A model generated the notes under the pieces. It worked only from the letters and a program-made list of their open reading frames with translations. It was not told where the DNA came from and did not search any database. A stretch of DNA of 39,162 nt from an uncultured Methanosarcinales archaeon. GTDB taxonomy: Archaea > Nanobdellota > Nanobdellia > Woesearchaeales > CG1-02-33-12. This document shows, in pieces, positions 67-5,603 of this stretch (position 1 is its first letter; each line of letters begins with the position of its first letter). The position numbers and the translations under genes were made by a program. The stretch is from assembly GCA_964458955.1 (NCBI GenBank), contig CAYWLA010000001.1, positions 5,982 through 45,143 on the forward strand, read 5' to 3'.

Positions 67-1350
67 ATGAAGTTTATGAAAGATAAAAAAGGGTTAGGAA
101 TAATAGGTTTGCTTTCTAGTTACTGGCCTATTCTTCTTATTGTTGCTATTGTTATTGGCATAATTTATTTAAATTATACTCAATCACCTGCTGAAATTCC
201 TGAATCTGGTATAGATGAGGATGGTCAACCAACTTCTGAGCTCCTCCCAGGAGTAGATAACAAAAACTCTTGTGAAAATGTTACTGGTTTGCCTTTTAGT
301 TCTACTAGTTATCTTGGTGATCCCGGGAGTAATCCAGAATATATATCTGGCTATTCAGTATGTATAGATGAACGTATTGATTTAGACACAGATACTGGTA
401 CATGGAAGTCTTATGAAGTTGAAAAAGGTGATGAATGGTGCTTGGAATTAAACATGGATAGTGATCATAGTGAATACATAAAATGCTGTGTATACTGTCC
501 ACAAGAAACACATTATTCTCCAATTAGCAAGTCCTGTAAACTTGATTTAGATATTGAAGAGGGGCTTCAATGGGAACTTGAATGCCCTTACATAACCCTA
601 TCATGGGATAAGGATGAAAGAGCAGTATCTTATGAAATTATCCCTTTTTATGATGAAAATAAAGATAAAGTAGAGGATGGCAAGTGCGTTGAGGATATAT
701 CCAACACCAAAGAGAGATATTTTTATTATAACCTGAAATCAAGTGGTTGTGCAGCTTATTACACAGGAAATGTAAGGTTTCAAATTATTCCACAGTATTC
801 TGATGGCCTGTCAATAGAATCATATATTACAAACTGGATTGATGTAAGTGTATGTAATATTGGATCTACTGAACTAACTACCATATGCACAGACTCTGAT
901 GGTGGAAAAGATTATTATGTTAAAGGATATACTATAAATGAGAATGGTGTTAGGGATGATGATGTGTGTATGTCAGATCCTGAAGGTAAGGTTCTTAATG
1001 AATATTATTGTGATGAAAATGGAGGAAAAGGCATTGAATATACTTGTCCAAATGGCTGTAGTGATGGAGCATGTATTTGTGATATGATAAATACGCTAGC
1101 TGATGGAGAATTAAAAACTTACACAATTAAAGGTATTGATTATAATGTCAAGCCAATAATCACCACAAATATATATCCTTATCACGTTCAGTTTGTGGTA
1201 AATGGTGAACTAACTGAACTCTTGGGAACAGGTAATACATTCACATTATCAAATGGAGCAGGAATAGCTGTAATTGAAATCCTGCCAAATGAAGCAGGGG
1301 ATGTAACACAAGATTTAGTTGAATTTTGTTTAAATGGGAAAACTAGTTAG
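67..1350 (+). CDS. Cysteine-rich, N-terminally membrane-anchored surface/secreted protein (function unknown)
   Basis: 427-aa ORF. Hydrophobic N-terminal segment GLGIIGLLSSYWPILLIVAIVIGIIYL. Many Cys, including the module CTDSDGGKDYYVKGYT...YYCDENGG...CPNGCSDGACIC. No catalytic motif recognised. Confidence 0.6.
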   Translation: MKFMKDKKGLGIIGLLSSYWPILLIVAIVIGIIYLNYTQSPAEIPESGIDEDGQPTSELLPGVDNKNSCENVTGLPFSSTSYLGDPGSNPEYISGYSVCIDERIDLDTDTGTWKSYEVEKGDEWCLELNMDSDHSEYIKCCVYCPQETHYSPISKSCKLDLDIEEGLQWELECPYITLSWDKDERAVSYEIIPFYDENKDKVEDGKCVEDISNTKERYFYYNLKSSGCAAYYTGNVRFQIIPQYSDGLSIESYITNWIDVSVCNIGSTELTTICTDSDGGKDYYVKGYTINENGVRDDDVCMSDPEGKVLNEYYCDENGGKGIEYTCPNGCSDGACICDMINTLADGELKTYTIKGIDYNVKPIITTNIYPYHVQFVVNGELTELLGTGNTFTLSNGAGIAVIEILPNEAGDVTQDLVEFCLNGKTS

Positions 1351-1465: not shown

Positions 1466-4081
1466 ATGGCCTTAACTGAAAAAGAAAAATATGAACTAAA
1501 GAAATTTATTAAGAAGCTTGAACTATTTAAAAGGCCGCACACAGAGCTTGTTACTGTTTATATTCCTGCTGGCTATGACATAAATAAGATAATAAACCAT
1601 TTAAAGCAGGAGCAGGGAACTGCAACAAATATAAAATCAGCTTCAACAAGGAAAAATGTTATTGATGCACTTGAGAGAATGGTACAACATTTGAGATTAT
1701 TTAAGCAGACACCAGAAAATGGCCTGACTGTTTTTTCCGGGAATGTTGCTGAAAGAGAAGGACAGATTGATTTGGAAGTATGGAGCATAGAGCCGCCAGT
1801 GCCTTTAAATACCAGAATATACAGGTGTGACAAGCAGTTTGTTCTTGACTTGTTGAGAGATATGCTTGACACAAAAGAGGTTTACGGTCTTGTTGTCATG
1901 GACAGGAGAGATGCAAACATTGCTTTGTTAAAGGGAAAAACAATAGTCCCTTTGGTTAAGACACATTCACAGGTTCCTGGAAAACAGCGAGCTGGGGGAC
2001 AATGTCTTGTAAATGAATCTTTAATCCAATTATCTGATGGTTCTCTTCCCAAAATTGAAATGGTTCATAATCCAAATATAATCAAGTCTATTATGATTAA
2101 GAACAATTTTGCAGTTTCTGATTCAAATATCATAGATAAATGGAATGTAAAGAAGAATAAAATTTACAAGATTGTTACTAAAAATCCCCGCTTAGAAATT
2201 CAATCATCTAAAGATCATTTGTTTTTTGTAGCAACTTCTAAAGGAATCATTGAAAAATCTGCAGAGGAATTAAAACAGGGAGATTATCTAATAATGCCTG
2301 AAAAAATATACATCAAAGGAAAAATACAAAAAATAAATTCAAAAAAATATTATAATTCTTTTATCATAACAAAAGAAGGCCAGGAATTTCTAAAGAAAAG
2401 AAGATTAAAAAAGGGATTGCTTCAAAGGCAATTAGCAAAAGAAGCAGGTTTAACACAAACAACAATCTCCCGTTATGAACTTGGTAAATCAAATGCATGC
2501 AGGATGCCATTAAAAAGATTGTGCAGTAAGTTAAATATTGATTTTGATAAATTTTTAAAAGATTATACCCATTCTTATATGTATAGAAATATAAATTTAC
2601 CAACTACTTTAAATAAGGAATTTGCACAATTTTTAGGATATCTCATAGGGGATGGTTGCATAGAAACTGACAGGGTTACTTTCTTTGAGCAAAATAAACA
2701 ATTAGCGTTAACTTACCAGAAAAAATTCAATCAATTCTTCAAAATTAATTCCAGCTATAGGTTTAGAGAAAGCAAAAACTATTATCAGATAAGATTTACT
2801 AGCAGGCCTTTGGTTAGATTAATCAAAGAAGAATTCCCGGAAATAAGGAAAGCTTTAGATTCTGAAATCCCCAAAAAAATACTCCTATCTGATAATAGGA
2901 TTGTTGCAGCTTTCTTGAGGGGATTATTTGATGCAGATGGATTTGTTAATATTAAAAGAGGAGTTGCTCTTGGAATAAATAATAAGAAATTGGCTCAACA
3001 TACTCAACTTGCACTGTTAAGGTTTTCTATTTTAAGTTCATTGCTGGAATATGACAATAAGGCAAATAAATACAGCAATAATCCGAGATTTACAGTTGAT
3101 ATAACTGAAAAGAAATCAATTCAATTGTTCAAAAAACACATTGGTTTCAGCTTTCATGAAAAAGCTAATAAATTAAATGCTATCATTAATAAAAAATCAG
3201 ATTCAAGCTATTCAAGGCAAATAATAGTTTCAGGAAGAAAAATAAGGAAATTAATAGAAAAATCAGGCTATAATCTTGAATTATTCCCAAAAGTTAATAA
3301 CTTTTTTAGAAATGAAAGAATGATGAGCAAACAAACTTTCAAAAATTCAATTTTATCTAATATTAAAGATAAAAAGCTGTATAATCAATTAGAGGTTATT
3401 TACAATTATCCAATTCTTCCAATTAAGATAAACAAGATAGAAAAAATCAATAAGAAAGTAAAAATGATTGATATATCAGTCAAAAACAAAAACTTCATAG
3501 CAAATGGAATAATTACTCATAATTCAGCAGCCCGTTTTGCAAGAATAAGAGAGGGTGCTGCAAAAGACCATTATAAAAAGGTTGCAGAATACATGAAAAA
3601 CCAGTTTTTAACACTAAAGGAGCTTAAGGGAATAATTGTTGGCGGTCCAGGTCCTACAAAATATGACTTTGTTGATGGTAACTATATTACAAATGAAGTG
3701 AAAAAAAAGATAATTGCAATAAAGGATTTGTCTTACACAGAGGAATTTGGACTGCAGGAATTATTAGATAAATCACAGGATGTATTGGCAAAAGAAGAGG
3801 TAGCAGCTGAAAAAGAAATAATGGCGAAATTCTTTAATCTGCTTTCAACAAGGCAGGGGATGGTAAGCTATGGCCTTAATGAAGTGAAAAAAAACCTTGA
3901 GATTGGCGCTGTAGACATATTATTGCTTTCAGAAAGCCTTGATGATAGTATAATAGATGAAATGGAGAATCTAGCAAAAACATTTGGCACTACTGTTAAT
4001 ATAATCTCAACAGAAACAAGAGAAGGTGTTCAGCTAAGGGAGATTGGCAAGATAGCTGCCATCCTAAGGTATGAGATTTAA
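1466..4081 (+). CDS. prf1: Peptide chain release factor aRF1, precursor containing one intein
   Basis: NIKS motif (TATNIKSAS), YxCxxxF (YRCDKQF) and GGQ (KQRAGGQ). After a 507-aa insert the sequence continues SAARFARIREGAAK...GGPGPTK...ILRYEI, which is the canonical aRF1 continuation. Exteins total about 364 aa. Confidence 0.9.
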   Translation: MALTEKEKYELKKFIKKLELFKRPHTELVTVYIPAGYDINKIINHLKQEQGTATNIKSASTRKNVIDALERMVQHLRLFKQTPENGLTVFSGNVAEREGQIDLEVWSIEPPVPLNTRIYRCDKQFVLDLLRDMLDTKEVYGLVVMDRRDANIALLKGKTIVPLVKTHSQVPGKQRAGGQCLVNESLIQLSDGSLPKIEMVHNPNIIKSIMIKNNFAVSDSNIIDKWNVKKNKIYKIVTKNPRLEIQSSKDHLFFVATSKGIIEKSAEELKQGDYLIMPEKIYIKGKIQKINSKKYYNSFIITKEGQEFLKKRRLKKGLLQRQLAKEAGLTQTTISRYELGKSNACRMPLKRLCSKLNIDFDKFLKDYTHSYMYRNINLPTTLNKEFAQFLGYLIGDGCIETDRVTFFEQNKQLALTYQKKFNQFFKINSSYRFRESKNYYQIRFTSRPLVRLIKEEFPEIRKALDSEIPKKILLSDNRIVAAFLRGLFDADGFVNIKRGVALGINNKKLAQHTQLALLRFSILSSLLEYDNKANKYSNNPRFTVDITEKKSIQLFKKHIGFSFHEKANKLNAIINKKSDSSYSRQIIVSGRKIRKLIEKSGYNLELFPKVNNFFRNERMMSKQTFKNSILSNIKDKKLYNQLEVIYNYPILPIKINKIEKINKKVKMIDISVKNKNFIANGIITHNSAARFARIREGAAKDHYKKVAEYMKNQFLTLKELKGIIVGGPGPTKYDFVDGNYITNEVKKKIIAIKDLSYTEEFGLQELLDKSQDVLAKEEVAAEKEIMAKFFNLLSTRQGMVSYGLNEVKKNLEIGAVDILLLSESLDDSIIDEMENLAKTFGTTVNIISTETREGVQLREIGKIAAILRYEI
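2003..3523 (+). mobile_element. Intein (507 aa) with LAGLIDADG homing-endonuclease domain and an embedded HTH module, inserted after GGQ of aRF1
   Basis: Begins with Cys1 (CLVNESLIQLSDGS). Block-B-like SSKDHLFFV. Two LAGLIDADG motifs (FLGYLIGDGC, FLRGLFDADGFV). Ends FIANGIITHN, followed by a +1 Ser. Joining the flanks restores GGQ|SAARFARIRE. Confidence 0.85.
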
Positions 4082-4796: not shown

Positions 4797-5603
4797 ATGA
4801 AAATTAAAGAAATCAAAGCAAAATCAATCATAACTAAATCCGGCTTACCAGATTCAGATTTTGTAATAAACCCATATATTGGATGCCAGCACGGTTGTAA
4901 ATATTGCTATGCAAGATTTATGAAAAGATTTACAGGCCATACAGAACCTTGGGGCTCATTTGTTGATGTAAAGATCAATGCTCCTGATTTAATCCCAAGA
5001 AACACAAATAAATACAAATGTAAGTCCATAACAATTAGTTCTGTTACAGACCCTTACCAGTCAATTGAGAGAAAATATAGACTCACAAGAAAAATTCTTG
5101 AAAGACTTATACCACTTCAACCACATTTAGGTTTGATGACCAAGTCTGATTTAGTAGTTAGGGATATTGATTTGTTTAAGAAATTCAAGGATTGTATTGT
5201 TGCTCTTTCTTTATCAATTTTAGACAATAAAATAAGGAAGGAATTAGAACCTTTGTCATCGTCACCAAATAAAAGAATAAACGCGCTGAAAGAAGTTCAT
5301 AAAAACAAAATTCCAACAGCCCTTTTTATCTCACCAATTTTTCCAGAAATAACAGATTGGAAAAAAATAATCAACAAAACTAAATCTTTTGTAGGTGAAT
5401 ATTGGTTTGAAAACCTAAATCTTTATCCATCTATAAAAAGAGAGGTTTATAGATTCCTAAAAAAGAACAAACCTGAACTTATAGAGAAATACAAAGATAT
5501 ATATTCAAAAAATAGCAATTATTGGGATATTGAAGAAAGGAACATAAAAGAATTTTGTAAAAAGAATAAGATTAACTGTAGAATATATTTCCATCATAAG
5601 TAG
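4797..5603 (+). CDS. Radical SAM protein, SplB / DNA-repair-photolyase-like (COG1533-like)
   Basis: INPYIGCQHGCKYCYARF contains the CxxxCxxC radical-SAM cluster motif, in the N-terminal context typical of SplB-like proteins. Confidence 0.7.
   Translation: MKIKEIKAKSIITKSGLPDSDFVINPYIGCQHGCKYCYARFMKRFTGHTEPWGSFVDVKINAPDLIPRNTNKYKCKSITISSVTDPYQSIERKYRLTRKILERLIPLQPHLGLMTKSDLVVRDIDLFKKFKDCIVALSLSILDNKIRKELEPLSSSPNKRINALKEVHKNKIPTALFISPIFPEITDWKKIINKTKSFVGEYWFENLNLYPSIKREVYRFLKKNKPELIEKYKDIYSKNSNYWDIEERNIKEFCKKNKINCRIYFHHK

What the first reader, a model, noticed from the sequence alone, without database searches (positions are those of the whole stretch)
2003..3523. 507-aa LAGLIDADG intein splits the sole class-I release factor exactly after its catalytic GGQ motif
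Seen directly:
- The aRF1 ORF is 871 aa instead of about 400.
- The N-extein ends ...VPGKQRAGGQ.
- The insert opens with Cys (CLVNESLIQLSDGS).
- It contains a block-B-like SKDH and two LAGLIDADG motifs (LGYLIGDGC, LRGLFDADGF).
- It ends IITHN, followed by Ser.
- Removing 2003-3523 restores GGQ|SAARFARIRE, the canonical aRF1/eRF1 sequence.

The GGQ loop is the element that enters the peptidyl-transferase centre. The unspliced precursor should therefore be unable to hydrolyse peptidyl-tRNA, which would make all translation termination dependent on protein splicing. I do not recall aRF1 among the classical intein host proteins (polymerases, RFC, RNR, MCM, VMA, IF2, etc.), so the insertion site may be new or rare.
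Basis: partly seen in the sequence, partly recalled or inferred. Interest (0 to 1): 0.72.

Follow-up and report, generated by a model that had tools for sequence, protein, structure and literature searches.

The report
Mobile intein splitting archaeal release factor
The only release-factor gene in this window (a DPANN archaeon) is interrupted right after its catalytic GGQ motif by a complete self-splicing, mobile intein; the intein is real and common in these archaea, I found no paper describing it, and in kind it is an ordinary homing intein.

Summary
ORF 1466-4081 encodes an 871-aa aRF1 precursor. Nucleotides 2003-3523 encode a 507-aa class-1 intein (Cys1 ... His-Asn|Ser+1) inserted between Q179 of GGQ and S687.

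Pfam, an AlphaFold model (pLDDT 93.7) and Foldseek (TliVMA intein, PI-PfuI, PI-TkoII, PI-SceI) all identify a Hint splicing domain with a nested two-motif LAGLIDADG endonuclease.

The element is neither unique nor rare:
- Hundreds of DPANN aRF1 genes (Woesearchaeota, Nanoarchaeota, Pacearchaeota, Aenigmatarchaeota, Iainarchaeota) carry a homologous intein at the same codon.
- Close relatives (88-95% extein identity, same gene neighbourhood) have an empty 364-aa allele.

Evidence that it is mobile:
- intein and extein phylogenies disagree;
- intein dN/dS is 0.17;
- the endonuclease acidic residues are conserved;
- HTH-less and mini-intein forms exist.

This is a live homing intein. Splicing itself, and "sole release factor", remain untested. 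Eight literature searches aimed at this (six also covering eukaryotic eRF1) found no description, so I rate it a new member of a known kind.

Side finding: Aenigmatarchaeota aRF1 reads GGW instead of the universal GGQ.

The parts
1466..4081 (+). aRF1 precursor ORF, 871 aa (100.4 kDa), stop codon included
   Evidence: ORF; eRF1_1, eRF1_2, eRF1_3, Intein_splicing, LAGLIDADG_3, HTH_3; mass
1466..2002 (+). N-extein, aa 1-179. Contains NIKS (nt 1628-1639), YRCDKQF (nt 1820-1840) and GGQ (nt 1994-2002).
   Evidence: It is 91-94% nt-identical to the intein-free alleles L001 and L005.
2003..3523 (+). Intein, 507 aa, 59.2 kDa, pI about 10. GC is 27% against 36-38% in the exteins.
2003..2362 (+). N-terminal Hint part (intein aa 1-120). 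Block A starts with Cys1 (CLVNESLIQLSDG). Block B is S-x-x-H (SSKDH, nt 2204-2218), with Ser in place of the usual Thr.
   Evidence: C1, S69 and H72 are invariant in 57 homologues; C1 and H72 are also invariant in the more divergent 11-sequence set. Aligns to the PI-PfuI N-terminal splicing region. Beta-strand rich in the model.
2372..2566 (+). XRE/Cro-type helix-turn-helix accessory domain (intein aa ~124-188, five helices), lying between Hint-N and the endonuclease.
   Evidence: Pfam HTH_3 44 bits against a cut-off of 23. Sequence matches to C.BclI (2b5a) and 434 repressor. Helices 124-188 in the model. dN/dS 0.14. Absent from some homologous aRF1 inteins.
2615..3157 (+). LAGLIDADG homing-endonuclease domain (intein aa ~205-385). 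Motif 1 is LGYLIGDGC (nt 2633-2659); motif 2 is LRGLFDADGF (nt 2915-2944).
   Evidence: Pfam LAGLIDADG_3, two stretches. Foldseek matches to I-DmoI and I-Tsp061I for this part. Intein residues G212, Y213, G216, G218, G307, D310, A311 and G313 are invariant, and D217 is invariant or >=90% conserved. Position 312 is Asp here and Glu in most homologues. dN/dS 0.16.
3158..3412 (+). Helical region between the endonuclease and C-terminal Hint (intein aa ~386-470). It occupies the position of the 'accessory domain' of TliVMA, PI-PfuI and PI-TkoII.
   Evidence: Helices 385-467 in the model. Part of it (precursor aa 601-655) is the best-conserved intein segment, 68% mean identity to the window protein. 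Accessory-domain concept from PMC8966425. Its role in DNA binding is inferred.
3413..3523 (+). C-terminal Hint part (intein aa 471-507). Blocks F and G are ...MIDISVKNKNFIANGIITHN, with the block-F Asp (D490) and the terminal His506-Asn507.
   Evidence: D490, H506 and N507 are invariant. All 120 close homologues and 75 GTDB loci end ..HN|S.
3524..4081 (+). C-extein, aa 687-871, plus stop codon. It starts with Ser+1 (SAARFARIRE) and holds the rest of eRF1 domain 2 and domain 3.

Best explanation
Nucleotides 2003-3523 are a canonical class-1 intein with a nested LAGLIDADG homing endonuclease. It sits in frame in the aRF1 gene of a Woesearchaeota-type DPANN archaeon, between Gln179 of the GGQ loop and Ser687.

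How it works (inferred from the established intein mechanism):
1. The 100-kDa precursor is translated.
2. Cys1 makes an N-S acyl shift at the Gln179-Cys180 bond.
3. The acyl group is passed to the side chain of Ser+1.
4. Asn507 cyclises, helped by His506 and the block-B His and block-F Asp, and frees the 59-kDa intein.
5. An O-N shift leaves a normal Gln-Ser peptide bond, giving a 41-kDa aRF1 with an intact GGQ loop.

A 59-kDa protein hanging from the tip of the loop that must reach the peptidyl-transferase centre should make the precursor inactive. Functional aRF1 therefore depends on splicing (inferred).

At the DNA level the freed intein is a site-specific endonuclease that cuts empty aRF1 alleles at the GGQ|S codons. 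Repair from an occupied allele then copies the intein in. The XRE-type HTH and the helical region after the endonuclease most likely add DNA contacts next to the cleavage site (inferred).

The element is currently mobile in DPANN populations, not a fixed relic.
For: Identity:
- Pfam hits.
- AlphaFold model with pLDDT 93.7 and pTM 0.92.
- Best PDB matches are TliVMA intein (E 2e-22), PI-PfuI, PI-TkoII and PI-SceI. The sequence-level matches are the same.

Splicing residues:
- C1, block-B H72, D490, H506 and N507 are invariant or >=95% conserved in every alignment made; block-B S69 likewise in the 120- and 57-sequence alignments; Ser+1 follows HN in all close homologues checked (119 of 120 parsed) and in all 75 complete GTDB loci.

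Empty alleles:
- 13 clusters of aRF1 (12 of exactly 364 aa), 88-95% identical to the spliced window protein.
- L001 and L005 share the downstream gene order with the window, and their flanking genes are 83-94% nt-identical to it.
- Their DNA is contiguous across GGQ|S.

Mobility:
- Intein presence needs at least 33 changes on an extein neighbour-joining tree of 221 sequences. 36 of 107 intein-plus alleles have an intein-minus nearest neighbour.
- The intein and extein distance matrices correlate at only 0.37, against 0.82 and 0.73 for the internal controls. Some pairs have 91%-identical inteins in 57%-identical exteins, and others the reverse.
- Between the window and L008, intein dS is 0.165 against 0.328 for the exteins (Fisher p = 0.001).
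- dN/dS is 0.14-0.20 in the Hint-N, HTH, endonuclease and post-endonuclease parts.
- The LAGLIDADG acidic residues are conserved.
- All stages of the homing cycle are seen at this site: full-length, HTH-less, a 271-aa mini-intein, and empty.

Spread:
- 731 clusters at E<1e-10.
- About 46 aRF1 representatives among 50%-identity clusters.
- At least 282 stretches in GTDB species genomes. All 75 complete loci among the best 80 lie at GGQ|C...HN|S.
Against: - Nothing here shows splicing or DNA cleavage directly; both are inferred from conserved residues and evolutionary pattern.
- Block B has Ser where most inteins have Thr.
- The trees are neighbour-joining on 364 columns and the sequence sets are the top 120 hits of two searches, so the count of 33 changes is rough.
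- The lower dS of the intein could partly reflect its extreme A+T content (27% GC).
- Among the closest relatives, the intein-plus genomes (window, L008) also share a radical-SAM gene that the intein-minus ones lack. Locally, therefore, a single gain or loss is enough.
Confidence: 0.9

Rival explanations
1. The intein has been co-opted by the host. Splicing is conditional (redox, temperature or another signal), so the supply of active aRF1, and with it translation termination, is gated after translation. In addition or instead, the freed intein uses its XRE-type HTH as a DNA-binding regulator.
For: - The intein is almost as conserved as the essential extein: mean pairwise identity 0.58 against 0.62, and 108 of 507 against 84 of 364 columns at >=95%.
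- It carries a regulator-type HTH with dN/dS 0.14.
- A Cys in the HTH (intein C174) is invariant among 57 closer homologues.
- Conditional splicing of archaeal RadA inteins is documented (cited).
Against: - Empty alleles are common in close relatives, so the host does not need the intein.
- HTH-less and mini versions exist at the same site.
- C174 is not invariant in the more divergent set.
- The same Hint-HTH-LAGLIDADG layout occurs in unrelated host proteins, which fits an endonuclease accessory module.
- No palindromic operator stands out upstream of the gene.
- Conservation is explained by selection for homing.
Confidence: 0.08
2. The intein is a fixed, no longer mobile relic. The endonuclease is inactive, and the element persists only because any imprecise deletion at the GGQ loop would kill an essential gene.
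For: - Insertion at an essential catalytic motif does make loss difficult.
- All 120 closest full-length hits carry the intein.
- Locally, a single gain or loss explains the pattern.
Against: - The endonuclease, HTH and post-endonuclease parts are under purifying selection (dN/dS 0.14-0.16), with catalytic acidic residues kept. A relic would decay, as the 271-aa mini-intein P0285 shows.
- Intein and extein histories disagree strongly.
- Intein dS is half that of the extein.
- Empty alleles are interleaved with occupied ones.
Confidence: 0.07
3. The insert is not spliced. It is a permanent extra domain, the gene is a pseudogene, or it is an assembly chimera.
For: None beyond the absence of experimental data.
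Against: - The identical protein is found on four independent contigs from JGI, ENA and Logan assemblies.
- The reading frame is intact and every splice residue is conserved.
- A 59-kDa domain at the tip of the GGQ loop is incompatible with entry into the peptidyl-transferase centre (established eRF1/aRF1 structural knowledge).
- Extein dN/dS is 0.06, so the host gene is functional.
Confidence: 0.02

Closest known systems
TliVMA / PhoVMA inteins (V-ATPase A subunit, Thermococcales; PDB 7qss, 7qst, 7qsu)
   Same: - Best structural match (Foldseek E 2e-22, TM 0.76 on the target) and a top sequence match.
- Same parts: Hint domain, two-motif LAGLIDADG endonuclease, and a helical accessory domain between the endonuclease and C-terminal Hint.
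- Inserted at a catalytic loop (the P-loop) of an essential protein (PMC8966425).
   Different: - Different host protein and site.
- Only 15-16% identity.
- In TliVMA the link between Hint-N and the first LAGLIDADG helix is an unstructured 28-32-residue loop. Here that position holds a complete XRE-type HTH domain.
PI-PfuI (Pyrococcus furiosus ribonucleotide reductase intein, PDB 1dq3) and PI-TkoII (2cw7)
   Same: - Closest by sequence (E 1.3e-12; blocks A/B and both LAGLIDADG motifs align) and second and fourth by fold.
- Archaeal class-1 inteins with active LAGLIDADG endonucleases and extra DNA-binding parts.
   Different: - Host proteins belong to DNA metabolism, not translation.
- Their accessory domains differ (per PMC8966425; from my memory these are the Stirrup domain of PI-PfuI and domain IV of PI-TkoII), and neither has an HTH_3 domain.
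PI-SceI (yeast VMA1 intein)
   Same: - The textbook homing intein: splicing plus LAGLIDADG endonuclease plus an extra DNA-recognition region.
- It persists through cycles of invasion, fixation, decay and loss.
- Clear fold match (E 3e-11).
   Different: - Its DNA-recognition region is an insertion within the Hint domain.
- It is eukaryotic, with 11-12% identity.
Archaeal translation-factor inteins (aIF2/IF2-type, listed by Novikova et al., PMC4760082)
   Same: An intein in a core translation factor of archaea.
   Different: - That survey lists aIF2 but nothing for release factors in its main text, and it states that core translation proteins contain few inteins.
- aRF1 is a different protein, and the site here is the catalytic GGQ.

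Membership tests
Class-1 intein (Hint domain protein-splicing element) | Hint fold with N- and C-terminal splicing blocks | tested here: met
   Pfam Intein_splicing 74 bits against a cut-off of 35.8. The model's best PDB matches are inteins.
Class-1 intein (Hint domain protein-splicing element) | Nucleophile (Cys/Ser) as first residue | tested here: met
   Cys180 of the precursor. GGQ|C is seen in 119 of 120 close homologues by motif search; the remaining one (P0029) was a spurious early match and still parsed as GGQC. GGQ|C is also seen in 75 of 75 complete GTDB loci.
Class-1 intein (Hint domain protein-splicing element) | Block B T-x-x-H | tested here: met
   S-K-D-H: His72 is invariant in every alignment made; Ser69 (replacing the usual Thr) is invariant in the 57-sequence alignment and >=95% conserved among 120. 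The hydroxyl residue is kept, so I count this as met, with a variation.
Class-1 intein (Hint domain protein-splicing element) | C-terminal His-Asn followed by Ser/Thr/Cys at +1; block-F Asp | tested here: met
   ITHN|S. H506, N507 and D490 are invariant, and Ser+1 is present in every homologue checked.
Class-1 intein (Hint domain protein-splicing element) | In-frame insertion whose removal restores a contiguous conserved host sequence, with intein-free homologues existing | tested here: met
   The spliced sequence is 364 aa. Empty alleles, 12 of the 13 closest being exactly 364 aa, are 88-95% identical and syntenic.
Class-1 intein (Hint domain protein-splicing element) | Demonstrated protein splicing | not testable with these tools
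   Needs expression of the precursor or proteomics.
LAGLIDADG homing endonuclease (two-motif, monomeric) | Two LAGLIDADG helices, each ending in an acidic residue before Gly, in an alpha-beta-beta-alpha-beta-beta-alpha pseudo-dimer fold | tested here: met
   LGYLIGD217G and LFDAD312G. Pfam LAGLIDADG_3 hits twice. Foldseek matches I-DmoI, I-Tsp061I and the intein endonucleases. The acidic positions are conserved: D217, and D/E312.
LAGLIDADG homing endonuclease (two-motif, monomeric) | Site-specific cleavage of the empty allele, and homing | tested here: inconclusive
   Only indirect support: purifying selection, patchy distribution, intein/extein discordance and a lower intein dS. Cleavage itself was not tested.
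aRF1/eRF1 class-I release factor (host protein) | eRF1 domains 1-3 with NIKS, YxCxxxF and GGQ motifs | tested here: met
   Pfam eRF1_1, eRF1_2 and eRF1_3. NIKS is aa 55-58, YRCDKQF aa 119-125 and GGQ aa 177-179.
XRE/Cro-C1 type helix-turn-helix (Pfam HTH_3) | Five-helix HTH_3 domain | tested here: met
   44 bits against a cut-off of 23. Matches C.BclI and 434 repressor. Five helices at 124-188 with pLDDT above 90.
XRE/Cro-C1 type helix-turn-helix (Pfam HTH_3) | Sequence-specific DNA binding or transcriptional regulation | not testable with these tools
   No operator-like palindrome stands out upstream of the gene. The role in target-site binding is inferred.

The most novel reading that the evidence does not exclude
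Because every molecule of aRF1 in these cells must pass through protein splicing at the catalytic loop, the intein could act as a post-translational valve on translation termination, through conditional splicing that responds to redox state or stress. The released 59-kDa intein, with its regulator-type HTH, could have a second life as a DNA-binding protein. That would make it a domesticated intein controlling a core step of the genetic code in genome-reduced archaea.
Probability: 0.08. Interest if true: 0.8.

Novelty: new member of a known kind. Interest (0 to 1): 0.5.

Why it matters
- It adds the class-I release factor, at its catalytic GGQ loop, to the list of intein host sites. A second site lies before the Cys of YxCxxxF in some relatives. 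Surveys describe translation proteins as poor in inteins.
- It is a well-populated natural example of a homing cycle in uncultivated DPANN archaea. Occupied, HTH-less, mini and empty alleles all occur at one codon, which is useful for studying intein spread and gene flow between these organisms.
- Practical point: NCBI names many of these precursors "helix-turn-helix domain-containing protein" or "LAGLIDADG family homing endonuclease". Such genomes can therefore look as if they lack aRF1.
- The Hint-HTH-LAGLIDADG layout may interest engineers of meganucleases.

Tried and rejected
Literature:
- Eight searches aimed at a natural release-factor intein (intein with aRF1, eRF1, "peptide chain release factor", "release factor" plus archaea, Woesearchaeota, DPANN, the Novikova survey, Anaeramoeba) found no description; six of them were not limited to archaea and so also covered eukaryotic eRF1.
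- The Bodo saltans virus paper mentions both terms, but its inteins are in polymerases.
- The supplements of the Novikova survey are not held.

Regulatory role of the HTH:
- The 115-bp upstream region has one weak 11-nt inverted repeat and a TATA-like box, with nothing operator-like.

Other elements in the window:
- HMMs built from the Hint, endonuclease, HTH and extein parts hit only this ORF.
- No tRNA or Rfam hits.

Whether the GGW release factor is a paralogue:
- Looking for the GGW locus's neighbouring genes around GGQ-type Aenigmatarchaeota loci gave no hits within the 3-kb flanks.

Technical:
- A first regular-expression pass over the GTDB loci failed for technical reasons and was redone.
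- A first script failed on file names.
Full report
**Observation**

ORF 1466..4081 (+) is 871 aa. The Gln of GGQ is residue 179, Cys180 begins at nt 2003, and Asn686 ends at nt 3523 and is followed by Ser687. The insert is exactly 507 aa, and its removal gives a 364-aa protein reading ...VPGKQRAGGQ|SAARFARIRE.

Pfam finds eRF1 domains 1, 2 and 3, Intein_splicing and two LAGLIDADG_3 stretches. All are well above the curated cut-offs. The intein is 27% G+C against 36-38% for the exteins.

**Anatomy**

An AlphaFold model of the intein, built on 57 homologues, is confident throughout (pLDDT 93.7, pTM 0.92). Its best matches among solved structures are the endonuclease-bearing inteins TliVMA (E 2e-22), PI-PfuI, PI-TkoII, PhoVMA and PI-SceI. 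These are followed by free LAGLIDADG enzymes such as I-DmoI for the middle part. Sequence search of the PDB gives the same inteins, and it matches residues 122-187 to the controller protein C.BclI and to 434 repressor.

The order of parts is:
- Hint-N, aa 1-120 (block A Cys1; block B S-K-D-H);
- a five-helix HTH, aa 124-188;
- the LAGLIDADG domain, aa 205-385 (motifs ending D217-G and D312-G);
- a helical region, aa 386-470, in the position of the "accessory domain" described for TliVMA, PI-PfuI and PI-TkoII (PMC8966425);
- Hint-C, aa 471-507 (block-F D490, His506-Asn507).

In TliVMA the Hint-N to endonuclease link is an unstructured loop. Here a whole HTH domain sits there.

**Distribution**

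The full precursor finds 731 protein clusters at E<1e-10. The best 120, down to 56% identity, are nearly all about 870 aa (a few are truncated or longer), and all but two HTH-less ones have the same domain set. They come from Woesearchaeota and Nanoarchaeota MAGs. JGI names several [quoted passage not shown], while NCBI calls them "helix-turn-helix domain-containing protein" or "LAGLIDADG family homing endonuclease". All keep GGQ|C ... HN|S.

An exhaustive search of 50%-identity representatives with the intein alone finds 87 proteins at E<1e-30. About 46 full-length representatives are aRF1 with a homologous intein at the same place, with intein identity down to about 29%.

In one genome per GTDB species, at least 282 stretches encode relatives. 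Of the best 80 loci, all 75 complete ones are aRF1 genes interrupted at GGQ|C...HN|S. They come from Woesearchaeota, Nanoarchaeota, Pacearchaeota, Aenigmatarchaeota and Iainarchaeota/Diapherotrites, plus a few evidently mislabelled bins. The site is therefore common in DPANN archaea.

**Empty alleles**

Searching with the spliced sequence returns aRF1 proteins, 12 of the closest 13 being exactly 364 aa, that are 88-95% identical (P0121-P0133). Two of them (loci L001, L005) have the same downstream gene order as the window: aRF1, a 221/222-aa YgjP-like protein, eIF5A, and an M50 peptidase. Their flanking genes are 83-94% nt-identical to the window, as close as the intein-bearing relative L008. 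Their DNA runs straight through ...GGACAA|TCAGCAGCC....

**Mobility**

- On a neighbour-joining tree of 107 spliced and 114 empty exteins, intein presence needs 33 changes (74 +/- 4 if labels are shuffled). 36 of 107 occupied alleles have an empty allele as nearest neighbour.
- Pairwise distances of inteins and of their own exteins correlate at only 0.37. The two extein halves correlate at 0.82 and the two intein halves at 0.73. Some inteins are 91% identical inside exteins that are 57% identical, and the converse also occurs.
- Between the window and L008, the intein has half the synonymous divergence of its exteins (0.165 against 0.328; p = 0.001). It is under purifying selection in the Hint-N, HTH, endonuclease and post-endonuclease parts (dN/dS 0.14-0.20, against 0.06 for the exteins).
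- Across 120 homologues the intein is nearly as conserved as the release factor itself, and the LAGLIDADG acidic residues are kept.
- HTH-less versions (409-435 aa), a 271-aa mini-intein without an endonuclease, and empty sites complete the stages of the homing cycle.

These are rough phylogenetic methods on hit-list samples. All the same, they agree that the element moves between aRF1 alleles and that its endonuclease is kept by selection.

**Mechanism**

Shown here: the residues and the fold. Inferred: the chemistry, which is the standard class-1 pathway (Cys1 acyl shift, transfer to Ser+1, Asn507 cyclisation, O-N shift). It would yield a 41.2-kDa aRF1 with a normal Gln-Ser bond and a 59.2-kDa basic intein.

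That the precursor is inactive is a reasonable inference from where the GGQ loop has to go. It is untested. Whether this is the organism's only aRF1 cannot be told from 39 kb; the window has no second copy.

The HTH is best explained as an extra DNA-binding module of the endonuclease:
- It is optional at this site.
- The same Hint-HTH_3-LAGLIDADG layout occurs in inteins of FttA/aCPSF1, Top6A, a DHHA1 protein and a metallo-beta-lactamase-fold protein.
- The upstream region of the gene shows no operator-like palindrome.

A regulatory or conditional-splicing role is not excluded, but nothing requires it.

**Comparison with what is known, and novelty**

In kind, this is an ordinary archaeal homing intein, closest to the TliVMA, PI-PfuI and PI-TkoII group. 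Like them, it sits in a catalytic loop of an essential protein.

The new elements are the host and the site. Eight full-text searches aimed at a natural release-factor intein, six of which also covered eukaryotic eRF1, found no paper describing one. The large survey by Novikova et al. lists aIF2 but no release factor, and it remarks that core translation proteins hold few inteins. To my recollection the old InBase registry has no aRF1 entry either. The library searched is incomplete, and automatic JGI annotation already labels these proteins, so I call it a new member of a known kind, of moderate interest.

**Side observations from following the homologues**

(1) Fifteen of the roughly 46 aRF1-intein representatives have no GGQ. 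The residue before the intein Cys is Trp, Met, Phe or Ser.
- Following the Trp case (P0265), the gene is real. It is on 7 contigs, one of 464 kb, and the codon is TGG.
- 118 of the 120 nearest intein-free aRF1 proteins, named Aenigmatarchaeota where a name is given, read ...KGGWSQARY.
- An intein-free GGW allele on a 1.1-Mb contig is perfectly syntenic with the intein-bearing one.
- NIKS and YxCxxxF are intact.
- One GGQ member is 71% identical to GGW members, so this looks like the orthologous release factor and not an old paralogue.
- I could not check whether those genomes also hold a GGQ copy.
- I found no mention of this in the literature searched.
- If single-copy, it would be a lineage-wide loss of the "universal" catalytic glutamine, and it deserves its own follow-up.

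(2) Two aRF1 proteins carry a second intein inserted just before the Cys of YxCxxxF (YLYM|C...HN|CDDHY).

**Verdict**

The "rare" and "sole" qualifiers are not supported as stated. Confidence that it is a splicing-competent, currently mobile LAGLIDADG intein at GGQ|S of aRF1 is 0.9. Interest is 0.5.

Noticed in passing
Outside the window: L013:10001-12739 (GGW + intein), L095:4001-5218 (GGW, no intein), proteins P0395-P0514, P0253-P0308: In Aenigmatarchaeota-type aRF1 the universally conserved GGQ reads GGW, in 118 of the 120 nearest intein-free homologues and with codon TGG. Other DPANN aRF1 representatives read GGM, GGF or GGS. NIKS and YxCxxxF are intact. A GGQ member is 71% identical to GGW members. 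I did not establish whether these genomes also carry a GGQ copy, and found no mention in the literature searched.
   Followed up: partly
Outside the window: P0292 (aa 124-367) and P0313 (aa 131-639): A second intein insertion site in aRF1, immediately before the Cys of the YxCxxxF stop-codon-recognition motif (YLYM|C...HN|CDDHY). In these proteins it occurs together with the GGQ-site intein.
   Followed up: partly
Outside the window: P0326, P0336, P0341, P0316, P0311: The same Hint - HTH_3 - LAGLIDADG intein layout occurs in other archaeal host proteins: the transcription termination factor FttA/aCPSF1, Top6A, a DHHA1-domain protein and a metallo-beta-lactamase-fold protein.
   Followed up: partly
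window 4797-5603 (+): A 268-aa radical-SAM gene lies between the YgjP-like gene and eIF5A in the window and in the intein-bearing relative L008. It is absent from the intein-free relatives L001 and L005, and L005 instead has a NUDIX gene right after aRF1.
   Followed up: no
window 67-1350 (+): A 427-aa Cys-rich ORF with an N-terminal hydrophobic stretch and no Pfam hit sits upstream of aRF1. In the relatives L001, L005 and L008 the upstream neighbours are instead ribosomal L37ae, Pcc1 and UPF0147, so the window has a rearrangement or insertion here.
   Followed up: no
L015, L024, L033, L078, L086 (GTDB genome records): Contigs carrying this DPANN aRF1 intein sit in bins titled Methanosarcinales archaeon, Candidatus Falkowbacteria bacterium and Candidatus Paceibacterota bacterium. 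L015 is 93% identical to the window intein. These are probably mis-binned or mislabelled MAGs.
   Followed up: no
Proteins P0003, P0009, P0010, P0012 and many others: NCBI names the intein-bearing aRF1 precursors "helix-turn-helix domain-containing protein" or "LAGLIDADG family homing endonuclease". Annotation-based gene inventories of these genomes would therefore score aRF1 as missing.
   Followed up: no
window 2003-3523 compared with L008:3060-4580: Synonymous divergence of the intein is half that of its own exteins (0.165 against 0.328, p = 0.001). This suggests the two inteins share a more recent ancestor than their host genes, although A+T bias may contribute.
   Followed up: partly
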